Shown: one piece after another, positions 6,647 to 41,318 of the stretch | Numbering within the stretch: the stretch's first letter is position 1 | How the letters are laid out: each line of letters begins with the position of its first letter | From: a virus | Taxonomy: Duplodnaviria; Heunggongvirae; Uroviricota; Caudoviricetes | DNA length: 41,900 nucleotides | Virus record (IMG/VR): IMGVR_UViG_3300028960_000080 | Location: 1-41,900 of that record | Reading direction: 5' to 3' (one strand) | The notes under the pieces: generated by a model | Told to the model about the DNA's origin: nothing | Database searches by the model: none | The model's input: the letters and a program-made list of their open reading frames with translations, nothing else | Made by a program: the position numbers and the translations under genes

Positions 6647-7273
6647 TTAGAGTTCGTATTGAACTCCTTTGACTACACCAATGATAAGGCAATTACCATT
6701 GATAGGGATGTTGGGATACCGAGGATTTAATGGCACTAAAAACTTTTGAGGGCCATCGATGACTAATTTTTTTACTGTAGCTTCGTTTGTTCCATCAAGT
6801 CGAGCGATGACTATTTTTCCATGACGAGGTTCTGCATCTGGATCTACAATCACTGTTGCGCCTTCTGGTATTGTTGGGAGGCCATTAGGGTTAGTCATGG
6901 AGTCACCTTTAACCTCTAATGCAAATGAGTTATCACCAATCTTTAATGATGTATCTACCCACTTGTCCACTTCACTAAACACTTCTGCTGCCCTGCACTC
7001 AGTAAACTGCCCAGCCTGAACCCACGATATTACAGGAACTCTGCGCATGTTTGTGACGAGTTTGCCTTCAAACTCAGCACCATAAAGAATGTAATCTATT
7101 GACGTATTGAAGAACTTCGCTAATTTCGAAAGTGCCTCCCCACCAGGGGTATTGATGTCTTTCTCCCAGTACCCCACAGCAACGTCGCTTACTCCACAAA
7201 ATTTACCCAATTCTTTCTGGGACGTTCTGGTAACTCTTCTCAGAGCTTTTATACGCTGACCAACCGTTTCCAT
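6647..7273 (-). CDS. cI: CI-type repressor (N-terminal HTH, C-terminal S24 LexA-like autopeptidase)
   Basis: HTH region (QKELGKFCGVSDVAVGYWE), GDSM serine motif and downstream Lys (VKKL) typical of S24 repressors; divergent from a cro-like gene. Confidence 0.9.
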   Translation of the reverse strand: METVGQRIKALRRVTRTSQKELGKFCGVSDVAVGYWEKDINTPGGEALSKLAKFFNTSIDYILYGAEFEGKLVTNMRRVPVISWVQAGQFTECRAAEVFSEVDKWVDTSLKIGDNSFALEVKGDSMTNPNGLPTIPEGATVIVDPDAEPRHGKIVIARLDGTNEATVKKLVIDGPQKFLVPLNPRYPNIPINGNCLIIGVVKGVQYEL

Positions 7274-7370: not shown

Positions 7371-7571
7371 ATGACAACTGACGATATCGAAAGCTACTTC
7401 GGCAGTATTGAGAAAGTTGCTGCTTTTTTCGGCATAACAACTGAAGCCGTTTATCAGTGGCGAAACCGTCCGGGCCAGTTAATTCCAAAAGGACGTGCAG
7501 CAGAAGCTGCATATAGAACTTGCGGACGGTTGCCATTTAAACCTGAGCTTTATGAAAAATCTAATGGATAA
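7371..7571 (+). CDS. cro: Cro-like HTH regulator (YdaS-like), 66 aa
   Basis: Small HTH protein (AAFFGITTEAVYQWRNR) divergently transcribed from cI. Confidence 0.75.
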   Translation: MTTDDIESYFGSIEKVAAFFGITTEAVYQWRNRPGQLIPKGRAAEAAYRTCGRLPFKPELYEKSNG

Positions 7572-8166
7572 ATCGATTAACAGAAACCACAGAACGATGA
7601 GGCTAACCGTGGGTAAGCATCACTGGAAAGTAGAAAAACAGCCTGAGTGGTACGTGAAAGCTGTCAGAAAAACTATCGCAAAGTTGCCGGGTGGTTACGC
7701 TGAAGCAGCTGACTGGCTGGATGTAACAGAGAACGCATTATTTAACCGCCTTCGTGCTGATGGCGATCAGATTTTCCCGCTGGGATGGGCAATGATTTTG
7801 CAACGTGCTGGTGGAACTCACTTCATTGCTGATGCTGTGGCGCAGTCTGCTAATGGCGTCTTTGTGTCTCTTCCTGACGTCGAGGATGTGGACAACGCCG
7901 ATATTAACCAGCGTCTGCTGGAAGTCATTGAACAGATCGGCAGTTATTCAAAACAGATTCGTTCAGCAATCGAAGACGGTGTAGTGGAACCGCATGAGAA
8001 GACAGCAATTAACGACGAGCTGTATCTCTCAATTTCGAAGCTGCAGGAGCATGCAGCACTTGTCTACAAAATTTTTTGCATTTCAGAAAGTAATGACGCC
8101 CGCGAGTGTGCAGCTCCGGGCGTCGTGGCGTCGATTGCTTCTGGTTGTGGAGAAACTAACGCATGA
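7495..8166 (+). CDS. YdaT-like protein occupying the cII position (start uncertain)
   Basis: ORF following cro; resembles the ydaS-ydaT pairing of Rac-like prophages; the track start is a GTG overlapping cro and alternative ATGs lack a clear ribosome-binding site. Confidence 0.55.
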
Positions 8167-8501
8167 ACAGTTTAACAACACACTACCGTCGCTCGCAACT
8201 GATTGCGCTTCCTGTACCGGGTGGAAAAGCGAAGGTGGAGTATTGCTATGCAGTAAATGTACCAGGTGACAGGGAAATTGTAACCCACAGCTTTGCAGAG
8301 TGGGCTGTGGGTGATTTCAACCGGCAGAAGGAGACAGTCCTTTGCGACAAGTTAACCGCTGGTTCAAAGATCACTACGGAGTGCCCGTCAGAGTCATTCG
8401 TTGGGAGCCGGAAACACAACGGGTTATCTACCTCCGCGAAGGCTATGAGCATGAGTGCTTCAGTCCGCTCGAACAGTTTCGTCGTAAATTCAGGGAAATA
8501 G
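8163..8501 (+). CDS. Hypothetical protein (112 aa), possibly frameshifted or partly spurious
   Basis: ATGA overlap with the upstream gene suggests coupling, but the C-terminal third is Ser-rich low complexity while an alternative frame encodes a protein-like sequence. Confidence 0.35.
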
Positions 8502-8521
8502 AGGTCGGTCATGAGCACTAA
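8342..8521 (+). CDS. Alternative-frame small ORF (59 aa, TTG start) not in the ORF track
   Basis: GAAGGAGA Shine-Dalgarno at 8327..8334, 7-nt spacer, TTG start; translation ...[42 protein letters not shown]; stop overlaps the start of the O-like gene. Confidence 0.35.
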
Positions 8522-9452
8522 ATTAACCGGCTATGTATGGGATGGTTGCGCAGCGTCAGGCATGAAATTATCCAGCGTGGCAATTATGGCCCGCCTGGCT
8601 GATTTCAGTAATGACGAAGGTGTGTGCTGGCCATCAATTGAAACCATTGCCCGCCAGATTGGCGCGGGGATGAGTACCGTCAGAACGGCTATCGCACGGC
8701 TGGAAGCAGAAGGCTGGTTAACGCGTAAGGCGCGTCGCCAGGGTAACCGCAATGCATCGAATGTTTATCAGCTTAACGTTGCGAAGCTTCAGGCAGCGGC
8801 ATTTTCTCAACTGTCAGATTCTGACACGTCAAAATCTGACGCATCAAAATCTGACCCGTCAAAATTTGATGCGTCGAAATCTGGCAAAAAAGCGGGTTTT
8901 CACCCGTCAGAATCTGGCGGGGATCCGTCAGTAAAATCAAAACATGATCCGTCAGATAAAAAAACTTCTCGTCCGGACGCTTCGCAACCGGACACGCAGA
9001 CGGATGAACAGGATTTTTTAACTCGCCATCCTGATGCGGTTGTATTCAGCCCTAAAAAGCGCCAGTGGGGGACGCAGGATGATTTGACCTGCGCACAGTG
9101 GCTCTGGAAAAAAATCATCGCCCTGTACGAGCAGGCCGCCGAATGTGACGGCGAGGTGGTTCGTCCTAAAGAACCGAACTGGACAGCCTGGGCAAACGAA
9201 ATTCGCCTGATGTGTGTGCAGGATGGTCGTACTCACAAACAAATCTGCGAGATGTACAGCCGCGTCAGCCGCGATCCGTTCTGGTGCCGTAACGTGCTCA
9301 GCCCGTCGAAGCTGCGGGAAAAATGGGATGAGCTTTCCCTGCGCTTATCGCCGTCCGTCAGCACGTACACCGAAAAACGCGAAGACCCGTACTTCAAAGC
9401 CAGTTACGACAACGTGGACTACAGCCAAATCCCGGCAGGATTCAGGGGGTGA
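8511..9452 (+). CDS. Replication initiator (lambda O-like: N-terminal winged-helix iteron binder, internal iteron-encoded linker)
   Basis: N-terminal HTH resembling phage replisome organisers; gene contains the iteron array as lambda O contains ori; sits at the O position after cro/cII-like genes. Confidence 0.75.
   Translation: MSTKLTGYVWDGCAASGMKLSSVAIMARLADFSNDEGVCWPSIETIARQIGAGMSTVRTAIARLEAEGWLTRKARRQGNRNASNVYQLNVAKLQAAAFSQLSDSDTSKSDASKSDPSKFDASKSGKKAGFHPSESGGDPSVKSKHDPSDKKTSRPDASQPDTQTDEQDFLTRHPDAVVFSPKKRQWGTQDDLTCAQWLWKKIIALYEQAAECDGEVVRPKEPNWTAWANEIRLMCVQDGRTHKQICEMYSRVSRDPFWCRNVLSPSKLREKWDELSLRLSPSVSTYTEKREDPYFKASYDNVDYSQIPAGFRG
8811..8918 (+). repeat. Origin iterons (about six ~15-bp repeats of consensus cGTCAAAATCTGAC) followed by an A-rich tract
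   Basis: Direct repeats read in sequence: CTGTCAGATTCTGAC, ACGTCAAAATCTGAC, GCATCAAAATCTGAC, CCGTCAAAATTTGAT, GCGTCGAAATCTGGC, CCGTCAGAATCTGGC. Confidence 0.7.
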
Positions 9453-9943
9453 GCATGAGTCTTTTGAATGACGTTCAGAAATTCATTGAAGCCCATCCGG
9501 GCTGTACTTCCGGAGACATTGCGGATGCTTTTGCAGGTTACTCACGGCAGCGCGTTCTGCAGTCAGCAAGCAAGTTACGTCAGAGTGGGCGTGTGGCTCA
9601 CCGTTGTGAAGGAGATACACACAGACATTTCCCGCGCCTGACTGAGAGAGCGCAGGATCCGGAACCACAACCAGTTCGTGAAACCAGACCTGTGCGCAAT
9701 TTCTATGTCGGCACTAACGACCCGCGGGTGATTTTGTGCCTGACCCGCCAGGCGGAAGAACTGGAGTCCAGGGGCTTATACCGTCGTGCTGCAACGGTGT
9801 GGATGGCGGCATTCCGTGAAAGCCACTCCCAGCCAGAACGAAACAATTTTCTGGCGCGTCGTGAACGGTGTTTACGGAAAAGCAGTAAGCGGGCTGCATC
9901 GGGTGAAGAGTGGTATCTGTCAGGGAATTACGTGGGGGCTTAA
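9449..9943 (+). CDS. PerC-family transcriptional regulator-like protein (164 aa)
   Basis: C-terminal GLYRRAATVWMAAF resembles the GLWRRAA..W motif of PerC/Pch regulators (from memory). Confidence 0.55.
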   Translation: MSMSLLNDVQKFIEAHPGCTSGDIADAFAGYSRQRVLQSASKLRQSGRVAHRCEGDTHRHFPRLTERAQDPEPQPVRETRPVRNFYVGTNDPRVILCLTRQAEELESRGLYRRAATVWMAAFRESHSQPERNNFLARRERCLRKSSKRAASGEEWYLSGNYVGA

Positions 9944-10596
9944 TGAGTAATAAATATTGCCAGGCGCTGGTGGAACTGCGGAACAAACCAGCCCATGAAC
10001 TGAAGGAAGTGGGCGATCAGTGGCGCACGCCGGACAACATTTTCTGGGGAATTAACACCCTGTTTGGCCCGTTTGTTCTGGATCTGTTCACTGATGGTGA
10101 TAACGCCAAATGTGCTGCGTATTACACGGCGGAAGACAACGCGCTGGCGCATGACTGGTCAGAACGTCTTGTGGAGCTTAAAGGTGCTGCCTTTGGTAAT
10201 CCCCCATACAGCCGCGCCAGTCAGCATGAGGGGCAATACATCACCGGCATGCGTTACATCATGAAACATGCCAGTGCCATGCGTGATAAGGGTGGGCGCT
10301 ATGTTTTCCTGATCAAAGCTGCCACCAGCGAAGTGTGGTGGCCGGAAGATGCGGACCATATTGCTTTTATTCGCGGGCGTATTGGTTTTGAACTGCCTGC
10401 CTGGTTTATCCCGAAAGATGAGAAGCAGGTGCCGACAGGCGCTTTCTTCGCTGGTGCTATTGCTGTTTTCGACAAGACCTGGAAGGGACCGGCAATCAGC
10501 TACATCGGGCGCGATGAACTTGAGGCATGTGGTGAGGCGTTTCTGGTGCAGGTTCGCCAGCAGGCGGAAAAACTGGTCAGGGAGATGGCGGCATGA
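9943..10596 (+). CDS. Phage N6-adenine DNA methyltransferase (Dam-like)
   Basis: NPPY catalytic motif (FGNPPYSR); start overlaps the upstream stop (TAATG); typical nin-region phage methylase. Confidence 0.88.
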   Translation: MSNKYCQALVELRNKPAHELKEVGDQWRTPDNIFWGINTLFGPFVLDLFTDGDNAKCAAYYTAEDNALAHDWSERLVELKGAAFGNPPYSRASQHEGQYITGMRYIMKHASAMRDKGGRYVFLIKAATSEVWWPEDADHIAFIRGRIGFELPAWFIPKDEKQVPTGAFFAGAIAVFDKTWKGPAISYIGRDELEACGEAFLVQVRQQAEKLVREMAA

Positions 10597-12168: not shown

Positions 12169-13164
12169 GTGACCGTGAGAGCACTACTGACCCCTGAAAT
12201 TGCCCCGCGTATGGGGATCGTATTGTTCAGACCAGGTTCAGAGCTGATGCCCCTGTTTATGCAGGGGCATGTCCTGCTGGAGCCTGAGCCGGAACGTTAT
12301 TCATCTTTCGCCAGTGGTGCCGTTCCGGCGGCATCACAACCGCTGGCGGATGATCCTGCCGTTCGGGCCGTGTTCCGCAATGAGGCAGTGATCCGTCGTG
12401 CTGGTGGCGTGGAATGTCTTGAAAGCTGGTTACTTCGTGAAAAAGGCTGCCAGTGGCCTCATTCCGACTGGCACAGCGAGAACATGACAACAATGCGACA
12501 CGCGCCGGGCGCAATCCGTCTGTGCTGGCACTGCGATAACCAGTTGCGCGATCAGTTCACGGAACGGCTGGAATCAATGGCAACGGATAACTGTGCCCGC
12601 TGGGTGTTGTCTGTTGTGCGTCTGGATCTCGGTTTTGATGACAGTCACGTTGTGACAATGCCGGAACTGTGCTGGTGGCTGATTCGTAATGATCTGGCGG
12701 ATGCCTTACCGGAAAGTGCAGCCCGTAAGGCACTGAGATTACCGAAGCCTGTTGTGCCGTCTGTCACCCGGGAAAGTGATCTTGTGCCTTCGGTTCCTGC
12801 CACCAGCATCATCCAGGATAAAGCGAAAAAGGTGCTGGCGCTGAAAGTGGATCCGGAGTCGCCGGAGTCTTTTATGTTACGCCCTAAACGTCGCCGCTGG
12901 GTTAACGAAAAGTACACGCGCTGGGTTAAGACGCAGCCGTGTGCATGTTGTGGAAAGCCTGCTGATGATCCCCACCACCTGATAGGTCACGGTCAGGGTG
13001 GAATGGGTACAAAAGCGCATGACCTCTTTGTGTTGCCTTTGTGCAGAAAGCATCACGACGAGCTGCATGCGGATACCGTGGCATTTGAAGAGAAGTATGG
13101 CTCCCAGCTGGAGCTGATATTTCGTTTTATCGACCGTGCGTTGGCAATTGGTGTGCTAGCCTGA
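12169..13164 (+). CDS. DUF968-like phage protein with C-terminal HNH/zinc-binding-like motif
   Basis: C-terminal CACCGKPADDPHHL...CRKHHDELH motif; lies between the KilA-N gene and Q; GTG start with adjacent GAGG. Confidence 0.55.
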   Translation: MTVRALLTPEIAPRMGIVLFRPGSELMPLFMQGHVLLEPEPERYSSFASGAVPAASQPLADDPAVRAVFRNEAVIRRAGGVECLESWLLREKGCQWPHSDWHSENMTTMRHAPGAIRLCWHCDNQLRDQFTERLESMATDNCARWVLSVVRLDLGFDDSHVVTMPELCWWLIRNDLADALPESAARKALRLPKPVVPSVTRESDLVPSVPATSIIQDKAKKVLALKVDPESPESFMLRPKRRRWVNEKYTRWVKTQPCACCGKPADDPHHLIGHGQGGMGTKAHDLFVLPLCRKHHDELHADTVAFEEKYGSQLELIFRFIDRALAIGVLA

Positions 13165-13181
13165 TTTGGTGGAGAAAGTTG

Positions 13182-13535
13182 ATGTGTGATATGTATGAAG
13201 TATTAGACCGTTGGGGAGCGTGGGCTGCGGCAGAGAACAGTGGTGTGGATTGGCAACCGGTAGCCGCTGGCTTCAAGGGGCTTTTACCTCATGGCAGAAA
13301 GTCCCGGATTCAGTGCGATGATGATGAAGGCATCATGATTGATGGCTGTGTCGCCCGCCTGCGGAAGTATAAACCAGAAGAATATGAGCTGATCATTGCT
13401 CATTTTGTGATTGGTATCTCATTACGCACCATTGCTAAGAAAAGAAAATGCTCTGATGGAGCAATTAGAAAAGAGCTTCAGGGAGCTATAGGGTTTATAT
13501 CAGGTATTCTATTATTGTTAGGCGAAGCCCTCTAG
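13182..13535 (+). CDS. Q: Late antiterminator Q (phage 82 / QuuD type)
   Basis: VLDRWGAWAA...AAGFKGL...RIQCDDD...GCVARLRK closely resembles DLP12 QuuD as I recall it; ATG at 13182 with GGAGA Shine-Dalgarno. Confidence 0.8.
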   Translation: MCDMYEVLDRWGAWAAAENSGVDWQPVAAGFKGLLPHGRKSRIQCDDDEGIMIDGCVARLRKYKPEEYELIIAHFVIGISLRTIAKKRKCSDGAIRKELQGAIGFISGILLLLGEAL

Positions 13536-13545
13536 GGCTCCGCTT
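13522..13545. terminator. Short hairpin between convergent Q and methyltransferase genes (possible bidirectional terminator)
   Basis: AGCCC-TCTA-GGGCT stem-loop followed by CCGCTTTTAAAG; weak stem. Confidence 0.3.
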
Positions 13546-14586
13546 TTAAAGTGATGCGATGATAGCCCTTCCAAGAGCTTCAGCCATCTTGGGAGGGACT
13601 GCATTCCCTATCTGTTTGGCTTTCGAGACTAAAGAGCCTGTGAAGGAATAGTCTAATGGGAAAGTCTGTAATAACGCAGCCTCTCTAACAGAAATAGCCC
13701 TATCTTGCTCTGGATGTCCGAAACGTCCATTCGAATAGCTTATACATCTAGTTGTTAATCCACTTGCTGGTTTGTCCCAAGAAAGCCGTCCATAAACATC
13801 AGTATGCCCTTTATATTTTTTATGGCATTTTAGTATAAGTTCTTCAGGCCAAGATTCTCTACCTTTTCCCTCAGGAGTCGCTTTAATACGTTTAATATTT
13901 AGATCAGATAGTTTGGCTGCTGTATGATCCATAACATCTTTATGAGTTTCACCGGCAGCAATAGGAGGTAATCCGCCGATCCAGTCTCTGACAGTTGCAT
14001 ACGGAGTTTTTAACCCATCATGAGTTTGTGATGGAAGCTTAATATTCGTGTGTTTTGACGCCAGTAAAACAAAACGTTCACGTGTTTGAGGAACCCCGAA
14101 CCACAACGCAGGAATCACACCAAAATCAACGTTGTAGTGATGATGTGCTAAAACCTCAAGAAATTTCTGGAAATTTCCATTGTTAATATCGACATTTTGG
14201 ATTCCTGGTACATTCTCTACCAGTACAAAGTCTGGCGTATAATAAGAGACAAACCGTGCAAACTCAGTAAGCAGATCTTTTCTCGGATCATCCTCGTTCC
14301 GTATTTTATTTTGTTTCGAGAATGGTTGACATGGAGCACAACCACAAAATAGGGTTAGAGCTTTGCTTTGTGTTGACGCACAAACCAGATGCTTAATTTC
14401 CTCAACGTGTGTATCTTTGATATCACCATTGATAAAATGTGCAAATGGATTATTCATTTTAAAGGTGTTAGCGGAATCTAGATCAATATCTAAACCGAAA
14501 ATAATTTCCATTCCCACCGCTTTTAGGCCTACACTGGTTCCGCCGCAGCCGGAAAAGAAATCGTAAACGTGTATCTTTTTAGCCAT
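13546..14586 (-). CDS. DNA cytosine-C5 methyltransferase (Dcm-like)
   Basis: Canonical C5-MTase motifs in order: I (DFFSGCGG), IV (GCAPCQPFS, catalytic Cys), VI (LVENV), VIII (QTRERFVLL); AT-rich by eye. Confidence 0.92.
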   Translation of the reverse strand: MAKKIHVYDFFSGCGGTSVGLKAVGMEIIFGLDIDLDSANTFKMNNPFAHFINGDIKDTHVEEIKHLVCASTQSKALTLFCGCAPCQPFSKQNKIRNEDDPRKDLLTEFARFVSYYTPDFVLVENVPGIQNVDINNGNFQKFLEVLAHHHYNVDFGVIPALWFGVPQTRERFVLLASKHTNIKLPSQTHDGLKTPYATVRDWIGGLPPIAAGETHKDVMDHTAAKLSDLNIKRIKATPEGKGRESWPEELILKCHKKYKGHTDVYGRLSWDKPASGLTTRCISYSNGRFGHPEQDRAISVREAALLQTFPLDYSFTGSLVSKAKQIGNAVPPKMAEALGRAIIASL

Positions 14587-14589
14587 TAT

Positions 14590-16380
14590 CTACCTCACTC
14601 TTGGTCTGATAGTATCATTATCTAAAAAGATTTGCAGCAACTCTCGAGTTTTTGTTAACACTTCATGATTATTTGGTATTTTATTAAGAATTCTGATTTG
14701 TGTTTCAAAGATATCGTCACTGGTAACGTTCTCCAACCCTGTGTCTAACTTACAAAGTTCTTTGGTGATTTCTTTAGCATCTTGAATGTTTTTGGGGATT
14801 TGATCTTTATATTCTTTATAATCACCATGAACATTCTCAATAAGAAATGCTTCAGGAGTATAAACAGGAAGAAAAGCAATTTTATCGTGGATGAAATCGA
14901 TAAAATTTCTTTGCATTGTGTATTTTTGATTGTTATTTGATGAGCCATTAGAACCATCACAACTAAATTTTATATCCTGATTGGTTATTTCTTTTATGAT
15001 GTTTTGAAGGTTTGTGTTTTGATTTTCTGGTATGGAATCAGAAGTTGGATAATCATCAGTTCTCGATTGGTCACCATCTAATAAGAAAATAACGTTTTTA
15101 ACATTGGCAACACATAAAGGCACAGCCAAAGTTTGAAGAATACTTCCCGCTCCTCCAGGAACATGTTTTACTTCGAAGGAGTTTAATAATGCTTCACCAC
15201 CCGCTTTAAGCGCCTTTTCTACAAACCTCTTCGCTAACCGATCTTCTACAATAACGGTTCTTTTATCAATGCGTTCACCAAGAATAAAGAAAGATTCTTC
15301 TGGACTGACATTTTGAAGAACATCAACCTTTCCTATTTTATCATTCAGACAGAATAATTTTATGGCATTTTTAGGCAAGTCTTTTACTATTGTTGATGAA
15401 TGTGTGGATATGACAATTTGATGTTTCTTTTTAAGTGCTTGTTCTGATAAAAATTCCATCAATTGACATTGAGCAGAAGGGTGAAGTGATACTTCAGGTT
15501 CATCTAGCAGAATTAAAGATGCATCAGGGCTATCCATTAGTTTATGCACTAATATAGATACAGCAAATTCCCCACTGCCTGCGAAAGCTTCAGAATATTT
15601 TAAGTTTTCTGATTGAAGAATAATTGTGGGAGCTTTGTCATTAGTGAATAAGCTATGTTCAATAAGGCGGATGCTTGTGTATTTGCGACCTAAAATCTTG
15701 CTGATTGCCTCTACCTTACTTTTTTCTAATAAAGTGTTAACAAATAGCTTGTCTTTTTTTCCTTTATGAGGTTGATATTTTTTAAGATCGTTATCTATAA
15801 TGTCTTTTAGCATCTGACTGCGTTTTCTAAGATAATCTTTCTTAGGGTATGTATGAAAATCAGAGTGATAAAAGAACTTATCAAATGCACTGATAGTTGC
15901 TCTGAAATCTAAATATATTACATTTTTGTCAATAGCTTTCCACCTGGTCCTTAGTTGATTGGTTGAGATTTTTGTACTAGGCATTGGAGCCATGTTGTCG
16001 GATTTTAATGGTCTGGATGGTTCCCAGTAATCAGGATCATTTTCTTTAGAGATTCGAGTTTTAATTACTTCAACAATTGAATCAGTAGCTTTGTCATAAT
16101 ATCCATAAATAAATCTAGAACGACCACCATCTTTAATCTCATCTACATCTGTAGAAAACCATAAGCTACCCAGAGAATAGTTGTTTGGAGAACCGAATAG
16201 GGCTCTTAAAACAGAACTTTTATTGGTTCCGTTTTGACCAACTAATGCTGTAATTGGATACTCAAAATCAATCTTGCTACCCTCTGCAAGGTTTTTAAAA
16301 AAAGGAAAACGAATATGTCTAATAAATGGCTCAATTTTAGACGATGCCATAATTTTCTTTAGTTTTAATTCTGTGCTCAT
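14590..16380 (-). CDS. ABC-type ATPase fused to a TOPRIM-like nuclease domain (OLD-family-like / fused PARIS-like), 596 aa
   Basis: Walker A (GQNGTNKSS), Walker B (LILLDEPEVSLHP), H-loop (ISTHS) in the N-terminal half; C-terminal TVIVED and FLLDGDQ fit the TOPRIM Glu and DxD motifs; 3-nt gap to the methyltransferase gene; start could instead be the ATG at 16350. Confidence 0.8.
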   Translation of the reverse strand: MSTELKLKKIMASSKIEPFIRHIRFPFFKNLAEGSKIDFEYPITALVGQNGTNKSSVLRALFGSPNNYSLGSLWFSTDVDEIKDGGRSRFIYGYYDKATDSIVEVIKTRISKENDPDYWEPSRPLKSDNMAPMPSTKISTNQLRTRWKAIDKNVIYLDFRATISAFDKFFYHSDFHTYPKKDYLRKRSQMLKDIIDNDLKKYQPHKGKKDKLFVNTLLEKSKVEAISKILGRKYTSIRLIEHSLFTNDKAPTIILQSENLKYSEAFAGSGEFAVSILVHKLMDSPDASLILLDEPEVSLHPSAQCQLMEFLSEQALKKKHQIVISTHSSTIVKDLPKNAIKLFCLNDKIGKVDVLQNVSPEESFFILGERIDKRTVIVEDRLAKRFVEKALKAGGEALLNSFEVKHVPGGAGSILQTLAVPLCVANVKNVIFLLDGDQSRTDDYPTSDSIPENQNTNLQNIIKEITNQDIKFSCDGSNGSSNNNQKYTMQRNFIDFIHDKIAFLPVYTPEAFLIENVHGDYKEYKDQIPKNIQDAKEITKELCKLDTGLENVTSDDIFETQIRILNKIPNNHEVLTKTRELLQIFLDNDTIRPRVR

Positions 16381-16411
16381 TTTTTATACTGAAATGGTTG
16401 CAAGGTAATGT

Positions 16412-16440
16412 ATTTTACGAAAATGCTAACGCGTACGCAA
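16412..16440 (-). promoter_or_regulatory. Candidate sigma-70 promoter for the Q-S cassette (TTGCGT - 17 nt - TAAAAT)
   Basis: Read on the minus strand: -35 at 16440..16435, -10 at 16417..16412, about 30 nt upstream of the ATG at 16380. Confidence 0.4.
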
Positions 16441-16485
16441 AAATCATTGTAATCTGTTAAGAGTGGTTACTTCGCCACACAGCTT

Positions 16486-16515
16486 AAACCCGCCGTCGAG
16501 CGGGTTTTGTCGTTT
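16486..16515 (+). terminator. tR'-like intrinsic terminator upstream of the lysis genes (end of a short late leader RNA)
   Basis: CCCGC-CGTCGA-GCGGG hairpin followed by TTTTGTCGTTTC on the plus strand; no upstream plus-strand gene nearby; position matches lambda pR'-6S-tR' architecture. Confidence 0.55.
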
Positions 16516-16659
16516 CTGGGGCTGGGGATTCGTTGGTCCTTGCCTATTCCGCAGTTATCCATTGGTTCGGCTTCTTTGACGTTTCCGCTTCTGATTTGCG
16601 GTACATGATGTTTCCTCAATTTGCACCTGCTGTATCAGCGAGGTGAGAGATAACTACAA

Positions 16660-16986
16660 ATGCCTCATAACCCAAATACCTGGCTGGAGTTGGTCCAGAG
16701 CTGGTGGCGTGGAGACACACCGCTGGGCGCAGTGATTATGTCGATTGTTATGGCTGGTTTACGTATCGCCTATTTTGGCGGTGGTGGCGGCTGGAAGCGA
16801 AAAACACTCGAAATTCTACTCTGTGGCGCTCTGACGCTGACTTTTGCATCCGCTCTTGAGTATGTCGGATGGCCTAAATCACTATCTGTTGCCATTGGTG
16901 GTGGGGTGGGGCTGATCGGTGTCGATGCTATTCGTGGGGCTGCAATGCGAGTAATCGGTAACAAATTTGGTGGCTCTAAGGAGTAA
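16660..16986 (+). CDS. Putative holin (108 aa)
   Basis: Small hydrophobic protein with Gly-rich membrane segments immediately upstream of the endolysin; not lambda S-like. Confidence 0.65.
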   Translation: MPHNPNTWLELVQSWWRGDTPLGAVIMSIVMAGLRIAYFGGGGGWKRKTLEILLCGALTLTFASALEYVGWPKSLSVAIGGGVGLIGVDAIRGAAMRVIGNKFGGSKE

Positions 16987-16989
16987 TTT

Positions 16990-17466
16990 ATGCAGGAACT
17001 AAATTCCCAGCGTAAAGCTTTCCTTGATATGGTGGCTTGGTCAGAAGGAACGGATAACGGACGACAACCGACACGTAACCACGGTTATGACGTTATTGTC
17101 GGTGGTGAACTCTTCACTGATTACTCCGATCACCCTCGCAAACTTGTCACGCTAAACCCGAAACTCAAGTCAACAGCCGCCGGACGTTACCAGCTTCTTT
17201 CACGCTGGTGGGATGCTTACCGTAAACAGCTTGGCCTGAAAGATTTTTCTCCAGAAAGCCAGGACGCTGTAGCTCTGCAGCAGATTAAAGAGCGTGGCGC
17301 TTTACCGATGATTGACCGTGGCAATATTCGTCAGGCAATCGACCGTTGCAGCAATATCTGGGCGTCATTACCTGGTGCAGGTTACGGTCAGTATGAACAT
17401 AAAATCGGTGACCTGATTGCACGGTTTGAAGAGGCTGGTGGGGTGATAAATGAAGTTGAGCTATAA
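16990..17466 (+). CDS. R: Endolysin, lambda R-type lytic transglycosylase
   Basis: Translation closely resembles lambda R over its length (e.g. QRKAFLDM.AWSEGTDNGRQ.TRNHGYDVIVGGELFTDYSDHPRKLVTLNPKLKST). Confidence 0.95.
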   Translation: MQELNSQRKAFLDMVAWSEGTDNGRQPTRNHGYDVIVGGELFTDYSDHPRKLVTLNPKLKSTAAGRYQLLSRWWDAYRKQLGLKDFSPESQDAVALQQIKERGALPMIDRGNIRQAIDRCSNIWASLPGAGYGQYEHKIGDLIARFEEAGGVINEVEL

Positions 17467-37928: not shown

Positions 37929-38035
37929 TATCAGGCGCAGGGGCAGCATCAACTGCTGTCACTGCGTCGATGTAGTCGAGTACCGCATTCATCCGCCTTT
38001 TTTCATCATCAGTCAGTTTGCGTCCTACACCTCTC
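37898..38035 (-). pseudogene. Inverted remnant of an alternative tail-fibre-assembly gene C-terminus (relic of an invertible host-range segment)
   Basis: Minus-strand reading gives ...[32 protein letters not shown], paralleling the Tfa C-terminal motif (V.D..AP.I.WP..P); only about 45 codons and no invertase gene. Confidence 0.35.
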
Positions 38036-38226
38036 CGTTAACATCTTTGTTATATGGTACAACTGCGCAGAGGCCTGTCTCTCCAATTGTGCCAGTTGAA
38101 TACTACGATACAACGCTAGGTCTTCCTATTTGGTGGAACATAACCACATCCACATGGAAAAGAGCTGATGGTGCAGATGTATAATTCTGGTGCCGCGCAT
38201 GCGGCACCAATAAAAAACATATTAAA

Positions 38227-39702
38227 CTAAAGTGAATCTATTCCATTTTTCCAAATAAGAACTTTTTTGTCTTGTATTTTATGAGTGCTATCAGGCTGCC
38301 CAAACTGTTTTATGGCCTTTTCCTCTTGCTCTACATCATCAGCAATTAAAAAATTAGCTCCTTTTTGGTACCATTCTTTTTTTGATAACCAATTATATGG
38401 TGTGAATCTATCACCATACGACTCAAATGGAGCTACGTTGATATCACTAAATCCAGCAACAGATGATGCAAACCAAAATGATGCATAACCTCTTTGTAGT
38501 TTATTTTTTATTAAGAAATCTCTTAATTCTATTGTAATATCATTTTTATTAACAATGTTTTTTGTTGTTGCCATCGTTGGCAACGATAACGCAATAACGA
38601 TTAATGATATTAGTAAATTTGTCTTCACTGGTAAGGAGAAAGAATTTCTAGCAATCACAATTGACATGAAAATAAACGTTGGGACTATGTATCTAATTGA
38701 GAAAAGATTTGTTGGCCTGTCACTTGAAATATAGGCAATCAACATGACTAATGATGATACAATAAGAACCTGGTCAATAAAATCAATTTCTTTAAATTTA
38801 AGAATATTTTTATAAGATAAAAATAAGAATACGAAAATGAAAAACACCTTTATCATGGTGAATAATGAGTTAAAGCTACCTATCTCCATTCCAAACGCGT
38901 ACCCACCAAAAAATTTGAATACGCCCATGATAACAAGAGATATGTTGCTTGTTATTTGTTGAAACTCTACTATGTGAGGTTTGGTTATGCCTGGCAGGTT
39001 AAATCCACCAAGCTTAATGAATATAAATGATATGAGCTCAGCAATAAATATAGATGATATAGTGAAAACCAACAATAACAAATCATTAGTATTCAACGAA
39101 TCTCTTTTCATTAGAGAAGCATACATTCTATATATGCAAACAAAAACTATAGGTATTATAAAGGCATATTTAGATATATCATCACTAAAAACAAGCAACG
39201 ATAACATAAATACATATGGAAAAAGTAATTTTAAATCATTTTTCTTTCTGTATCTATCTATTATTAGTATGATCGCCAGCATGTAAATGTACGCACCAAT
39301 ATGTATACATGCTATAAGCATTATACTTGATGAGAAAACCGTTGGAATTCCAAATACAGAAAGAACAGGCCATAACGATGCCCTACTTTTAGTATGAGAG
39401 ATATATAGCGATAGTGTTACTAATATAGACATGAAAACTCCAGGCACAATATAGTACAGATTTTCATTAAATCCTATTATTTTTATCGCTATAGCATATG
39501 GTATTATTTCTGTGAAATAGAATGATACAGTTGATAAATCCCACCCACTGAGAAAAATATTTCCTTCAGTAATATCCCTTGCCTCTCTGAATGAAGACAT
39601 GACATCTGAGTTTGGAATTATGTTTTTAGCAATCATTGAGTAAATTATTGATAATACAATAAATGTTGCCAGCCAATATAAAAGCTCAAGCTTCTTGCTC
39701 AT
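38227..39702 (-). CDS. Serotype-specific O-antigen glucosyltransferase (GtrC-type polytopic membrane protein)
   Basis: 491-aa multi-pass membrane protein immediately downstream of gtrB; very AT-rich. Confidence 0.8.
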
Positions 39703-40616
39703 TTTTTACCCTTAAGTACATACTTTGGACGCTGCTTAACTTCAATGTAAATTCTACCAATATACTCACCGAGCACTCCAATCCCAATTAACTGGATGCC
39801 GCCAAGAAATAATATTGATACAAGAATTGAAGGGTATCCAGGTACATTATTACCAAAAATTAATTTATCAATTATCATCCATGAACCGTATGTAAATGAT
39901 ATACATGCAATAAATAACCCAATATAGGTCCACATGCGAAGCGGGAATGTTGAGAAGCTAGTGATCCCTTCCAGCGCCAAGTTCCATAGCTTCCATCCAT
40001 TGAACTTTGTGCTTCCTGCAACGCGTTCTGCTCGCGCATATTCTACGACATCGGTTCGACCACCAACCCAGCTCAGCACACCCTTCATAAACAGGTTTCG
40101 TTCTGGCATGAGCTTAATGTTTTCTACTACTTCGCGAGACATGAGCCGGAAGTCGCCAACATTCTCTTCTATCTGAGGGTTGCTGATTTTGTTATGAAGT
40201 TTATAGAACCACTCAGCAGATTTACGCTTCAGCCTGCTGTCAGTGGAGCGGTCAGAGCGTTTAGCCAGAACCATATCTGCACCGGCCTGCCATTTCTCTA
40301 TCAAGTGAGGAATAACTTCGATAGGGTCTTGCAGATCAACGTCAATCGGGATAATTGCCTCCCCGGTAGCATGGTCCAGACCTGCGAACAGGGCGGGTTC
40401 TTTGCCGAAGTTACGTGTGAACGACAGCGAAACCACAAGCGGGTCGGCAACAGCAAGCTCGTTGATAATTGATTCTGTAGCGTCTTTGCTGCCATCGTTT
40501 ATGAAGACTATCTCGACTTCATGCTGCTGAAGCCCTTCAAATTCGCGCACGGTTTTATAAAAAATAGGTATCGTGGCCTCTTCGTTAAAGACCGGAACGA
40601 CTAAAGAAATTTTCAT
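39699..40616 (-). CDS. gtrB: Bactoprenol glucosyltransferase GtrB
   Basis: GT2-family glycosyltransferase signatures ([22 protein letters not shown]) and two C-terminal transmembrane helices. Confidence 0.92.
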
Positions 40617-40975
40617 TTCGCATCCCTAAAGACAATGTATTTTGAATAAATGAACCCGCATATCAGGCTGATGGCGGAGAAGGTGACAAGAGTTATCATC
40701 GGGGGAAGTGCGCATCTATCAGCAGCCCATCCAACAGTAGCACTGAGTGTTCCCATGAACCCGACATATAACATGTAGCGCATCGTTGTAGTTGATGATT
40801 TGAATGTGAATTTTGCATTCGCGAAGAAGCTAAAACTCACAGCCACAACGAAACCTGCGAAGTTTGCCAGAGCCTGATTGGTATGCGCGGCATAGATACA
40901 TACACTAAAAACCACCCAGTGTATAAGTGTGTTCAGCACACCAATCGAGGTGTACCTTGCAAATATATTTAACAT
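40613..40975 (-). CDS. gtrA: GtrA flippase-like small membrane protein
   Basis: 120-aa four-helix membrane protein upstream of gtrB; the three genes overlap by 4 nt each. Confidence 0.85.
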
Positions 40976-41318
40976 TTATTTAATCAATGAGTTCTGAAAG
41001 GTATGAAGTCTATCATCCAAGTCTCAATCGATCGATACTTGCGGTAGTTGATGAGGAAAACTCTGGTACACAAAGCTTTGCACTGGACTGCAAGGTGTTG
41101 TGCTTCTCTGGAGTGCGATATGTTTGATGACAAAAAATTAGCGCAAGAGGACAAAAAATCACCTTGCGCTAATGCTCTGTTACAGGTCACTAATACTATC
41201 TAAGTAGTTGATTCATAGTGACTGGATATGTTGTGTTTTGCAGTATTATACAGTCTATTTTTTAAGCCAAATGTATTGTAATGGATTGATATTAATGATT
41301 TTTGCTGTTTCTGGTTCA

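What the first reader, a model, noticed from the sequence alone, without database searches (positions are those of the whole stretch)
8811..8918. Replication origin iterons embedded in the initiator gene and translated as a Ser/Asp/Lys-rich linker
About six ~15-bp direct repeats (consensus cGTCAAAATCTGAC) followed by an A-rich tract lie inside the O-like gene, mirroring ori-lambda inside gene O. Because of the repeat period, the same DNA encodes a repetitive SDxSKSDASKSD peptide linker, so origin sequence and protein linker are coupled.
Basis: partly seen in the sequence, partly recalled or inferred. Interest (0 to 1): 0.35.

Follow-up and report, generated by a model that had tools for sequence, protein, structure and literature searches.

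The report
Phage replication origin inside initiator gene
A run of short repeated DNA sites inside a prophage's replication-initiator gene is almost certainly the phage's replication origin, built like the classic lambda origin, so it is a new example of a well-known arrangement and not a new kind of system.

Summary
Window 8812-8918 holds five head-to-tail 15-bp repeats plus a sixth 33 bp later, consensus cGTCAAAATCTGAC, each with dyad symmetry. They lie inside a 313-aa O-like initiator gene (8511-9452) of an SfIV/SfII-type lambdoid prophage and are read as SDSDTSKSDASKSDPSKFDASKSG.

The constraint is on the DNA, not the peptide. Third-codon positions are invariant at 67% of sites here against 17% in the neighbouring DNA-binding domain. 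Serine and lysine codons are almost fixed. One relative reads the same motif in a second frame.

The array occupies the same place in about 71 species with 3-9 copies. More distant initiators carry different dyad repeats at that spot.

The repeats align with the lambda iterons in an O-protein alignment, fall in a predicted disordered linker (aa 102-161), and are followed by the least stable duplex of the gene.

The origin is larger than reported, about 8811-8995.

Origin function is inferred, not shown. This is a new member of a known kind (lambda, phi80, P22, L).

Two side points: no P-like loader gene is present, and the initiator ends in the last nine residues of host DnaT.

The parts
8511..9452 (+). 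Initiator gene (313 aa, O-like); 99% nucleotide identity to Shigella phage SfIV gp41
   Evidence: ORF. Pfam HTH_36 at aa 23-70. PHROG 391 'replication initiation O-like', E 2e-135. megablast to SfIV/SfII.
8511..8810 (+). Coding region of the N-terminal winged-helix DNA-binding domain (aa 1-100)
   Evidence: AlphaFold2 model: helices, a two-strand wing and a further helix, pLDDT about 76-88. Foldseek hits to MarR/ArsR winged-helix proteins, best E 3e-3. Pfam HTH_36.
8812..8885 (.). Five head-to-tail 15-bp iterons: 8812-8825, 8827-8840, 8842-8855, 8857-8870, 8872-8885
   Evidence: Same array with 3-9 units at the same gene position in 71 non-redundant loci.
8886..8904 (.). Spacer AAAAAAGCGGGTTTTCACC (A6 ... 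T4) between the tandem array and the sixth iteron
   Evidence: Sequence. The T4 and the following ACCCG are conserved across species.
8905..8918 (.). Sixth (distal) iteron CGTCAGAATCTGGC, 33 bp after the fifth
   Evidence: CAGAATCTGG reaches the 80% level in the consensus of 71 loci. Relatives L165, L171 and L173 have arrays made only of this type at 30-33 bp spacing.
8919..8936 (.). Box 1, GGGGATCCGTCAGTAAAA: iteron half-site with a GATC
   Evidence: Direct repeat D12. Nearly invariant in four phages and at the 80% level in the 71-locus consensus. GATC at 8922.
8943..8964 (.). Box 2, CATGATCCGTCAGATAAAAAAA: second half-site with a GATC, 24 bp after box 1
8930..8969 (.). AT-rich tract, A-rich on the + strand; candidate unwinding element
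   Evidence: Lowest-GC 40-nt stretch of the gene, 27.5%. The least stable 30-mer of the gene is 8932-8961, -34.1 kcal/mol against a window mean of -41.2, sd 4.0.
8965..8995 (.). Right border block CTTCTCGTCCGGACGCTTCGCAACCGGACAC, holding the 10-bp palindrome CGTCCGGACG (8970-8979). Similarity between initiators with different C-terminal domains ends just after it.
   Evidence: The same block occurs in the Rac-like subtype. Lambda and phi80 carry a palindrome at the same relative place.
8814..8993 (+). Coding region of the predicted disordered linker (aa 102-161)
   Evidence: pLDDT below 50 for residues 102-161. Length varies by 5-residue units among homologues.
8994..9350 (+). Coding region of the C-terminal domain (aa 162-280), homologous to the C-terminal domains of lambda O and phi80 gp15
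   Evidence: BLASTP to lambda O, E 6e-26, and to phi80 gp15, E 3e-25. pLDDT 85-96.
9423..9449 (+). C-terminal tail SQIPAGFRG, 8 of 9 residues identical to the last nine residues of E. coli DnaT
   Evidence: A GF[RK] tail is present in 46 of 74 related initiators.

Best explanation
Window 8811-8995 is the replication origin of an SfIV/SfII-type lambdoid prophage. It lies inside the gene of its own initiator, as ori-lambda lies inside gene O.

Shown by sequence analysis:
- The origin holds five contiguous 15-bp dyad sites and a sixth 33 bp further on. Two half-site boxes follow at 21 and 24 bp, embedded in the least stable duplex of the gene, and a conserved palindromic border block closes the region.
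- The whole region codes for the disordered linker between a winged-helix N-terminal domain and a lambda-O-like C-terminal domain.
- The DNA itself, not the peptide, is under selection.

Inferred by analogy with lambda:
- Dimers of the N-terminal domain occupy the sites and build a multimeric complex.
- That complex strains the adjacent AT-rich tract open.
- Transcription from the early rightward promoter runs through the origin.

Inferred more weakly: the C-terminal domain and tail bring in the host helicase DnaB with DnaC directly, because the phage has no P-like loader gene.

The peptide repeat (S-K-S-D-x) arises simply because the site spacing, 15 bp, is a multiple of three.
For: 1. Repeats are real and non-random.

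2. The gene is an O-like initiator: PHROG 391, E 2e-135. Its C-terminal domain is 30-36% identical to those of lambda O and phi80 gp15.

3. Positional match. In the lambda O alignment, query residues 70-277 pair with lambda residues 78-270. The GenBank-annotated lambda iterons code residues about 117-145, opposite the window's repeat-coded residues 101-136.

4. Selection on DNA.
- Among the window and three phages, third-codon positions are invariant at 37 of 55 sites in the origin against 16 of 95 in the N-terminal domain (Fisher p 1e-9).
- In 74 genes, linker Ser codons are TCA or TCT in 84% of cases against 26% elsewhere, and Lys is AAA in 96% against 61%.
- Where the amino acid changes, the third base is often kept.
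- Phage Stx2_KH16-043 reads the same motif once as PSDSG and once as LQNLT.

5. Conservation. 71 non-redundant loci from Enterobacterales carry the array at the same gene position with 3-9 units, followed by a conserved right half.

6. Co-variation with the N-terminal domain. Initiators with other N-terminal domains carry other dyad repeats at the same spot:
- mEp460_4F5 has GGTCAAAGTGACC although nt 446-942 of its gene are 97% identical to the window's.
- Other repeats are found in GF-2, a Stx2a 933W-type phage, Klebsiella RothC, Vibrio D67 and Aggregatibacter S1249.
- Protein P0036 has a C-terminal domain nearly identical to the window's, but a different N-terminal domain and linker.

7. The repeats fall exactly in the segment with pLDDT below 50, residues 102-161.

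8. The AT-rich tract lies just downstream of the repeats.

9. SfIV, an isolated viable phage, has no other annotated replication gene, and this is the only tandem array in the window scoring above 50.
Against: - No experiment: binding of the initiator to these sites and origin activity are not shown here, and I found no paper reporting them.
- The AT-rich tract is only about 1.8 sd less stable than the window average and ranks in the top 5% of 30-mers, not the top.
- There is no P-like or DnaC-like gene, so the helicase-loading step has no identified partner.
- The binding register is ambiguous: the site may be GTCARA-W-TCTGAC or TCTGAC-NN-GTCARA.
- A 15-bp spacing puts neighbouring sites about 154 degrees apart on the helix, unlike the roughly two-turn spacing of lambda and most relatives. 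The complex may therefore differ from the lambda one.
- Codon statistics treat related sequences as independent, so the p-values are inflated.
Confidence: 0.8

Rival explanations
1. The repeat is only a protein feature. A low-complexity Ser/Lys/Asp linker expanded by slippage, and the DNA repeats have no role of their own.
For: The period is exactly 5 codons. The segment is predicted to be disordered. Copy number varies by whole units, as in many linker repeats.
Against: - Synonymous positions are far more conserved in the repeats than in the folded domain.
- Ser and Lys codon choice is almost fixed, and bases are kept where residues change.
- Each unit is a dyad.
- The motif also occurs in a second reading frame in a relative.
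- Non-repetitive flanking DNA (boxes and border block) is also conserved at third positions.
Confidence: 0.03
2. The sites bind the initiator, but mainly for control: autoregulation, a transcription roadblock, or copy-number control by pairing of arrays. Initiation happens elsewhere in the phage.
For: Iteron arrays serve control functions in plasmids (general knowledge). Copy number varies from 3 to 9, which a titration role would tolerate.
Against: - No second array or other candidate origin exists in the window, and no DnaA box lies nearby.
- The array is coupled to a conserved AT-rich tract and border block.
- Its position equals that of the lambda and phi80 origins.
Confidence: 0.08
3. The conserved DNA is a recombination joint between exchangeable gene modules. 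It is kept because it allows shuffling of N- and C-terminal domains, not because it is an origin.
For: Similarity between initiators with different C-terminal domains ends just after 8990. The border block is shared by two N-terminal domain subtypes.
Against: This could account for the border block only. It does not explain a dyad array that tracks the N-terminal domain, or the AT-rich tract. It is also compatible with the origin reading rather than opposed to it.
Confidence: 0.05

Closest known systems
ori-lambda inside gene O of phage lambda
   Same: - Direct repeats with internal dyad symmetry lie in the middle of the initiator gene.
- They code the segment between the DNA-binding N-terminal domain and the C-terminal domain.
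- An AT-rich tract follows on the promoter-distal side, then a palindrome.
- The C-terminal domains are homologous (E 6e-26) and the repeats align in the protein alignment.
   Different: - Lambda has four 18-bp sites spaced 20, 24 and 23 bp, read in different frames. This element has 5 contiguous sites at 15 bp, plus one site and two half-sites, and most are read in one frame.
- The N-terminal domain matches Pfam HTH_36; no Phage_rep_O match was reported.
- No P gene follows.
- The protein ends in a DnaT-like tail.
phi80 gene 15 / ori-phi80
   Same: The C-terminal domain is 36% identical. The GenBank record annotates four gp15 binding sites inside gene 15, followed by an AT-rich stretch and a palindrome.
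   Different: The N-terminal domain is unrelated. The repeats are spaced 21 bp. Gene 14, which is P-like, follows.
P22 gene 18 and phage L gene 18 origins
   Same: Initiator genes that hold their own, type-specific repeats. Phage L has six imprecise repeats of an 11-bp sequence, read as its likely origin (bioRxiv 10.1101/2020.10.05.325894, read).
   Different: The repeat sequences differ, and a DnaB-type helicase gene (gene 12) follows. I did not compare these sequences directly.
Other HTH_36-type O-like initiators (Stx2a 933W-type, Klebsiella RothC, Vibrio D67, Aggregatibacter S1249)
   Same: The N-terminal domain is related (35-45% identity over aa 25-94). A dyad repeat array starts right after that domain.
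   Different: Spacing is 21-24 bp and the site sequences are different. RothC and S1249 have a P-like gene next, and Stx2a_F403 has a large gene annotated 'replication protein'.
Iteron plasmid origins (pSC101, F, R6K, P1; general knowledge)
   Same: A winged-helix initiator and multiple direct repeats sit next to an AT-rich region with GATC sites.
   Different: Plasmid iterons lie outside the rep gene, are spaced about two helical turns apart, and usually sit beside DnaA boxes. No DnaA box lies near this array.

Membership tests
Lambdoid origin inside the initiator gene (ori-lambda type) | Three or more direct repeats with internal dyad symmetry inside the initiator ORF | tested here: met
   Six copies, each a dyad.
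Lambdoid origin inside the initiator gene (ori-lambda type) | Repeats code the segment between the N-terminal DNA-binding domain and the C-terminal domain | tested here: met
   Repeat-coded residues 101-136 lie in the low-confidence linker 102-161. They align with the iteron-coded part of lambda O.
Lambdoid origin inside the initiator gene (ori-lambda type) | AT-rich tract directly downstream of the repeats | tested here: met
   8930-8969 is 27.5% GC. The least stable 30-mer of the gene is 8932-8961. The signal is moderate in strength.
Lambdoid origin inside the initiator gene (ori-lambda type) | Repeat sequence follows the type of N-terminal domain while the C-terminal domain is exchangeable | tested here: met
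Lambdoid origin inside the initiator gene (ori-lambda type) | C-terminal domain homologous to that of lambda O | tested here: met
   BLASTP E 6e-26 to lambda O and 3e-25 to phi80 gp15.
Lambdoid origin inside the initiator gene (ori-lambda type) | N-terminal domain of the Phage_rep_O family | tested here: not met
   The Pfam scan reports HTH_36 and other winged-helix families; no Phage_rep_O match at E up to 0.01.
Lambdoid origin inside the initiator gene (ori-lambda type) | P-like helicase loader gene next to the initiator gene | tested here: not met
   The next genes are a PerC-family gene and a Dam methylase gene. SfIV has no loader or helicase annotated anywhere.
Lambdoid origin inside the initiator gene (ori-lambda type) | Initiator binds the repeats, and the fragment supports initiator-dependent replication | not testable with these tools
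   Needs footprinting and a plasmid replication assay.
DnaT / primosomal protein I (the name given to this gene in several phage records) | Homology to DnaT over its domains | tested here: not met
   BLASTP matches only the last 9 residues. hhalign of the C-terminal domain profile against DnaT gives probability 3%. No DnaT appears among PDB sequence matches (E up to 1) or the 50 best Foldseek matches shown.
Iteron plasmid replicons | Iterons outside the rep gene with adjacent DnaA boxes | tested here: not met
   The array is inside the gene. The only two DnaA-box matches are at 497 and 31167.

The most novel reading that the evidence does not exclude
This may be a one-protein lambda-type replicon with two unusual properties.

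1. Initiator dimers would bind contiguous sites every 15 bp (about 1.4 helical turns) and spiral around the DNA, instead of wrapping it as in the lambda complex.

2. The helicase would be loaded without any phage loader. The initiator carries the extreme C-terminal peptide of host DnaT (SQIPAGFRG against SQIPPGFRG) and could use it to capture whatever host partner that peptide binds, perhaps DnaC-DnaB or PriA/PriB. That would link origin firing to the host replication-restart machinery.
Probability: 0.15. Interest if true: 0.55.

Novelty: new member of a known kind. Interest (0 to 1): 0.3.

Why it matters
It locates the probable origin of a very common family of E. coli, Shigella and other enterobacterial prophages. 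The first 100 residues matched more than 600 stretches in IMG/VR, and related arrays occur in about 70 species. No origin is annotated in the SfIV record or described in the SfIV genome paper.

The region is a clean natural example of one DNA stretch serving both as protein-binding sites and as coding sequence, with a measurable codon-level signature. That signature could be used to find origins in other phage initiator genes.

The absent loader gene and the DnaT-like tail give a testable lead on how lambdoid phages without a P gene recruit the host helicase.

Tried and rejected
- IMG/VR scan with the N-terminal domain returned only 100%-identical copies, so it was useless for diversity. It did show +1 or +2 repeat units in 4 of 80 loci.
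- Literature searches for the SfIV/SfV origin and for the repeat sequences found nothing relevant.
- DnaA boxes: none near the array.
- GATC: not enriched in the window (146 found, 162 expected), so the two origin GATCs are notable only for their conservation.
- GC skew: the minimum at about 7-8 kb coincides with the switch in gene orientation between the divergent repressor and cro genes, so it says nothing about the origin.
- C-terminal domain as a DnaT homologue: hhalign probability 3%. The 50 best Foldseek matches shown have descriptions typical of winged-helix regulators like the N-terminal domain, and no DnaT is among them.
- oriJ of the Rac prophage as experimental support: K-12 YdaU is a DUF1376 protein, a different initiator type, so that literature does not apply.
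- E. coli loci L149 and L172 lack the array, but they are deletion remnants: the first 78 residues are fused to a terminase fragment. They are not functional homologues.
- An apparent specificity change, GTCA..TGAC to TTCA..TGAA in Stx2_KH16-043, was dropped. The outer bases vary among copies within single arrays.
- 'Plasmid' hits of 37-41 kb: the one inspected (NZ_CP081716.1) is a circular phage genome, not a plasmid replicon.

Full report
**What the window is**

The region around the finding is the early-right operon of a lambdoid prophage. In order it holds:
- a CI-like repressor gene (6647-7273, minus strand);
- a Cro-like gene (7371-7571);
- a CII/CP76-like gene (7495-8166);
- a small gene of unknown function (8163-8501);
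- a 313-aa gene (8511-9452);
- a PerC-family gene (9449-9943);
- a Dam methylase gene (9910-10596).

The 313-aa gene is 98-99% identical in DNA to gp41 of Shigella phages SfIV and SfII and to many E. coli phages. Those records call it 'replication protein O', 'primosomal protein' or 'helix-turn-helix protein'. It matches PHROG 391, 'replication initiation O-like', at E 2e-135. Its N-terminal part matches Pfam HTH_36.

**Checking the observation**

The 14-mer CGTCAAAATCTGAC, with at most three mismatches, occurs on the + strand at 8812, 8827, 8842, 8857, 8872 and 8905. Counting both strands, 10 of the window's 16 matches lie in 8812-8919, against 4.0 +/- 1.8 matches expected in shuffles.

Tandem Repeats Finder reports a 15-bp period at 8820-8883. 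It is the only array in the window that scores above 50. Spacings are 15, 15, 15, 15 and 33 bp. Every unit is an imperfect dyad (GTCARA-W-TCTGAC), so the array is a string of half-sites of alternating orientation.

Two corrections apply. The A-rich tract that matters is 8930-8969 (27.5% GC, A-rich on the + strand), outside the reported interval. Conserved DNA continues to about 8995.

**Is the constraint on DNA or on protein?**

This is the key question, because a 15-bp period is also a 5-codon period. I aligned the gene with three phage homologues: Klebsiella phage 1 LV-2017, Citrobacter phiNP and Yersinia YeP3.

- Third-codon positions are invariant at 16 of 95 sites in the N-terminal domain but at 37 of 55 sites in 8811-8975. 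In the part holding the sixth repeat and the two boxes the figure is 19 of 24 (Fisher p 1e-9).
- In 74 non-redundant genes from a one-genome-per-species collection, Ser codons in the linker are TCA or TCT in 84% of cases against 26% in the rest of the gene. Lys is AAA in 96% against 61%.
- Within the repeat units, codons that change the amino acid (TTT, CCT, ACT in place of TCT) keep the third base.
- In phage Stx2_KH16-043 the motif GACCCTTCAGAWTCTG is read once as D-P-S-D-S and, 32 bp later, as T-L-Q-N-L.

The p-values are inflated because the sequences are related. The contrast with the neighbouring, near-saturated synonymous sites is nevertheless large.

**Comparative anatomy**

A scan of 185,579 species genomes with an N-terminal domain alignment gave 80 loci with 52-100% identity.

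Seventy-one non-redundant loci carry the in-frame 15-bp array at nt about 296-380 of the gene, with 3-9 tandem units. After the array comes a conserved right half. Its consensus reads TTTT.ACCCGtCAGAATCTGG.GGgGATCCGTCAGTAA..TCAA.....GATCCAT.A..., then an A-rich stretch, then ..TTGTC.G..T.C...G.A..C.GA..

In near-identical E. coli copies the few polymorphisms fall mostly on the two-base spacer, and 4 of 80 copies have one or two extra units.

More distant relatives have related or different arrays at the same place:

| Element | Repeat | Spacing |
|---|---|---|
| L165, L171, L173 | CCTCCAGAATCTGGAGG | 30-33 bp |
| Rac-like subtype L177 | TTGAC-CC-GTCAA | 15 bp |
| mEp460_4F5 | GGTCAAAGTGACC | 23-24 bp |
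| Edwardsiella GF-2 | TCCCAAAATTGGGA | 24 bp |
| Stx2a 933W-type (Stx2a_F403) | GGGGCAGGAGCTGCCC | 21, 24 bp |
| Klebsiella RothC | TATGCCATCTGATGGCA | 22-24 bp |
| Vibrio D67 | CCTAGTGACAAAATGTCACC | 21, 24 bp |
| Aggregatibacter S1249 | GGTATGCCAGCAGATAGCAC | 21, 24 bp |

The Rac-like subtype shares almost the same right half as the window.

C-terminal domains are swapped independently of the N-terminal domain and repeats:
- Citrobacter phiNP and Yersinia YeP3 keep the N-terminal domain and origin but have an unrelated C-terminal domain. Similarity ends just after 8990.
- mEp460_4F5 shares only nt 446-942 of the gene.
- Protein P0036 has a C-terminal domain nearly identical to the window's, behind a different N-terminal domain and linker.

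So the repeats travel with the DNA-binding domain. That is the classic signature of an initiator and its cognate origin.

**Apparent exceptions**

E. coli loci L149 and L172 lack the array, but there the gene is cut after residue 78 and fused to a terminase fragment, a deletion remnant. Salmonella phage SF6 has a short HTH_36 protein without repeats, next to a primase/helicase gene. That is a different architecture.

**Relation to lambda**

BLASTP aligns residues 70-277 with lambda O residues 78-270 (E 6e-26). The GenBank-annotated lambda iterons (39034-39118) code O residues about 117-145. These lie opposite the window's repeat-coded residues 101-136. The AT-rich tracts that follow also correspond.

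phi80 gp15 shares the C-terminal domain (36% identity), and its record annotates four gp15 sites inside the gene. A published genome analysis of phage L states the general rule for lambda, P22 and L (bioRxiv 10.1101/2020.10.05.325894, read).

**Protein structure**

An AlphaFold2 model built on 32 homologues shows:
- a folded winged-helix N-terminal domain (1-100);
- a segment with pLDDT below 50 at 102-161;
- a confident helical C-terminal domain (162-280, pLDDT 85-96);
- a floppy tail.

The low-confidence segment corresponds to nt 8814-8993, that is, to the origin. Foldseek matches the N-terminal domain to MarR/ArsR-type winged-helix proteins.

**Mechanism**

The DNA anatomy, the DNA-level selection, the linkage to the N-terminal domain and the positional match with lambda are shown. 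What follows is inferred.

N-terminal domain dimers probably bind the dyad sites and form a multimeric complex. This would open the adjacent AT-rich tract (least stable 30-mer of the gene at 8932-8961), helped by transcription through the operon as in lambda.

The binding register is not settled.
- The alternative (TCTGAC-NN-GTCARA) places them about 9 bp apart, with the four least conserved positions in the middle. This alternative is what the Rac-like subtype and the two boxes conserve, and it fits MarR-like dimers better. I lean slightly towards it.

In either register a 15-bp spacing turns neighbouring sites by about 154 degrees. The last three spacings (33, 21 and 24 bp) are close to whole helical turns.

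**Helicase loading**

This is the weakest step. No P-like, DnaC-like or helicase gene follows the initiator, and viable phage SfIV has none annotated anywhere. The host DnaB with DnaC must therefore be recruited some other way.

**Side observations**

- The last nine residues, SQIPAGFRG, match the extreme C-terminus of E. coli DnaT, SQIPPGFRG, at 8 of 9 positions.
- A GF[RK] tail ends 46 of 74 related initiators, including ones with unrelated C-terminal domains. Only 2 of those 46 are followed by a loader gene of their own, against 6 of 28 without the tail.
- Beyond the tail, homology to DnaT is not supported. I found nothing on the function of the DnaT tail in a 2026 structural paper on the preprimosome (PMC13377028).
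- The two GATC sites in the AT-rich tract are conserved across species, and a Dam methylase gene lies close downstream in many of these phages. GATC is not enriched in the window overall.

**Verdict**

The element is a new, uncharacterised member of a well-known kind: a lambdoid origin inside the initiator gene. The in-frame peptide repeat is a by-product of a site spacing that is a multiple of three. Interest is modest. The missing loader gene and the DnaT-like tail are the most promising leads.

Noticed in passing
window 9423-9449: The initiator ends in SQIPAGFRG, 8 of 9 residues identical to the extreme C-terminus of E. coli K-12 DnaT (SQIPPGFRG). A GF[RK] tail ends 46 of 74 related initiators, including ones with unrelated C-terminal domains. 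The rest of DnaT is not detectably homologous.
   Followed up: partly
window 9449-10596; SfIV NC_022749 whole genome (L179): No lambda-P-like, DnaC-like or helicase gene follows the initiator. The next genes are a PerC-family gene and a Dam methylase gene. Viable phage SfIV has no other annotated replication gene.
   Followed up: partly
window 8922-8925 and 8946-8949; Dam gene 9910-10596: Two GATC sites 24 bp apart sit in the AT-rich part of the origin and are conserved across species. A Dam methylase gene lies directly or closely downstream of the initiator gene in the window and in the Klebsiella, Citrobacter, Yersinia and mEp460 relatives. GATC is not enriched in the window as a whole.
   Followed up: partly
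window 8970-8979; lambda L088 660-685; phi80 L176 6778-6800: A perfect 10-bp palindrome, CGTCCGGACG, follows the AT-rich tract. Lambda (CGTCAGAGAATTCTGGCG) and phi80 (CGTCCGAGAATTCTGACG) have a longer palindrome with the same ends at the same relative place. The lambda version also resembles the window's sixth iteron, CGTCAGAATCTGGCG.
   Followed up: no
L149 and L172 (E. coli chromosomes), 1501-2868: A 455-aa ORF joins the first 78 residues of this initiator to a terminase large-subunit fragment. This is a prophage remnant that has lost the origin and everything up to the packaging genes. From memory it resembles ymfN of prophage e14; I did not check that.
   Followed up: partly
L177 1842-2015 (Rac-like prophage region with ydaS/ydaT-like genes): A second N-terminal domain subtype has a 15-bp array that conserves TTGAC-CC-GTCAA rather than the AAAATC centre. 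It has nearly the same right half of the origin and is followed by a DnaC-like gene. K-12 Rac itself has a different initiator, the DUF1376 protein YdaU.
   Followed up: partly
plasmid records NZ_CP081716.1 (L175), CP085522.1: Circular records of 37-41 kb filed as E. coli plasmids carry this initiator and origin. The one inspected (NZ_CP081716.1) is a complete phage genome of this type with no typed plasmid replicon.
   Followed up: partly
window about 13000-17000 and 38000-41000: Two low-GC stretches (33-40% GC against about 55% in neighbouring phage genes) look like foreign cargo or the prophage ends.
   Followed up: no
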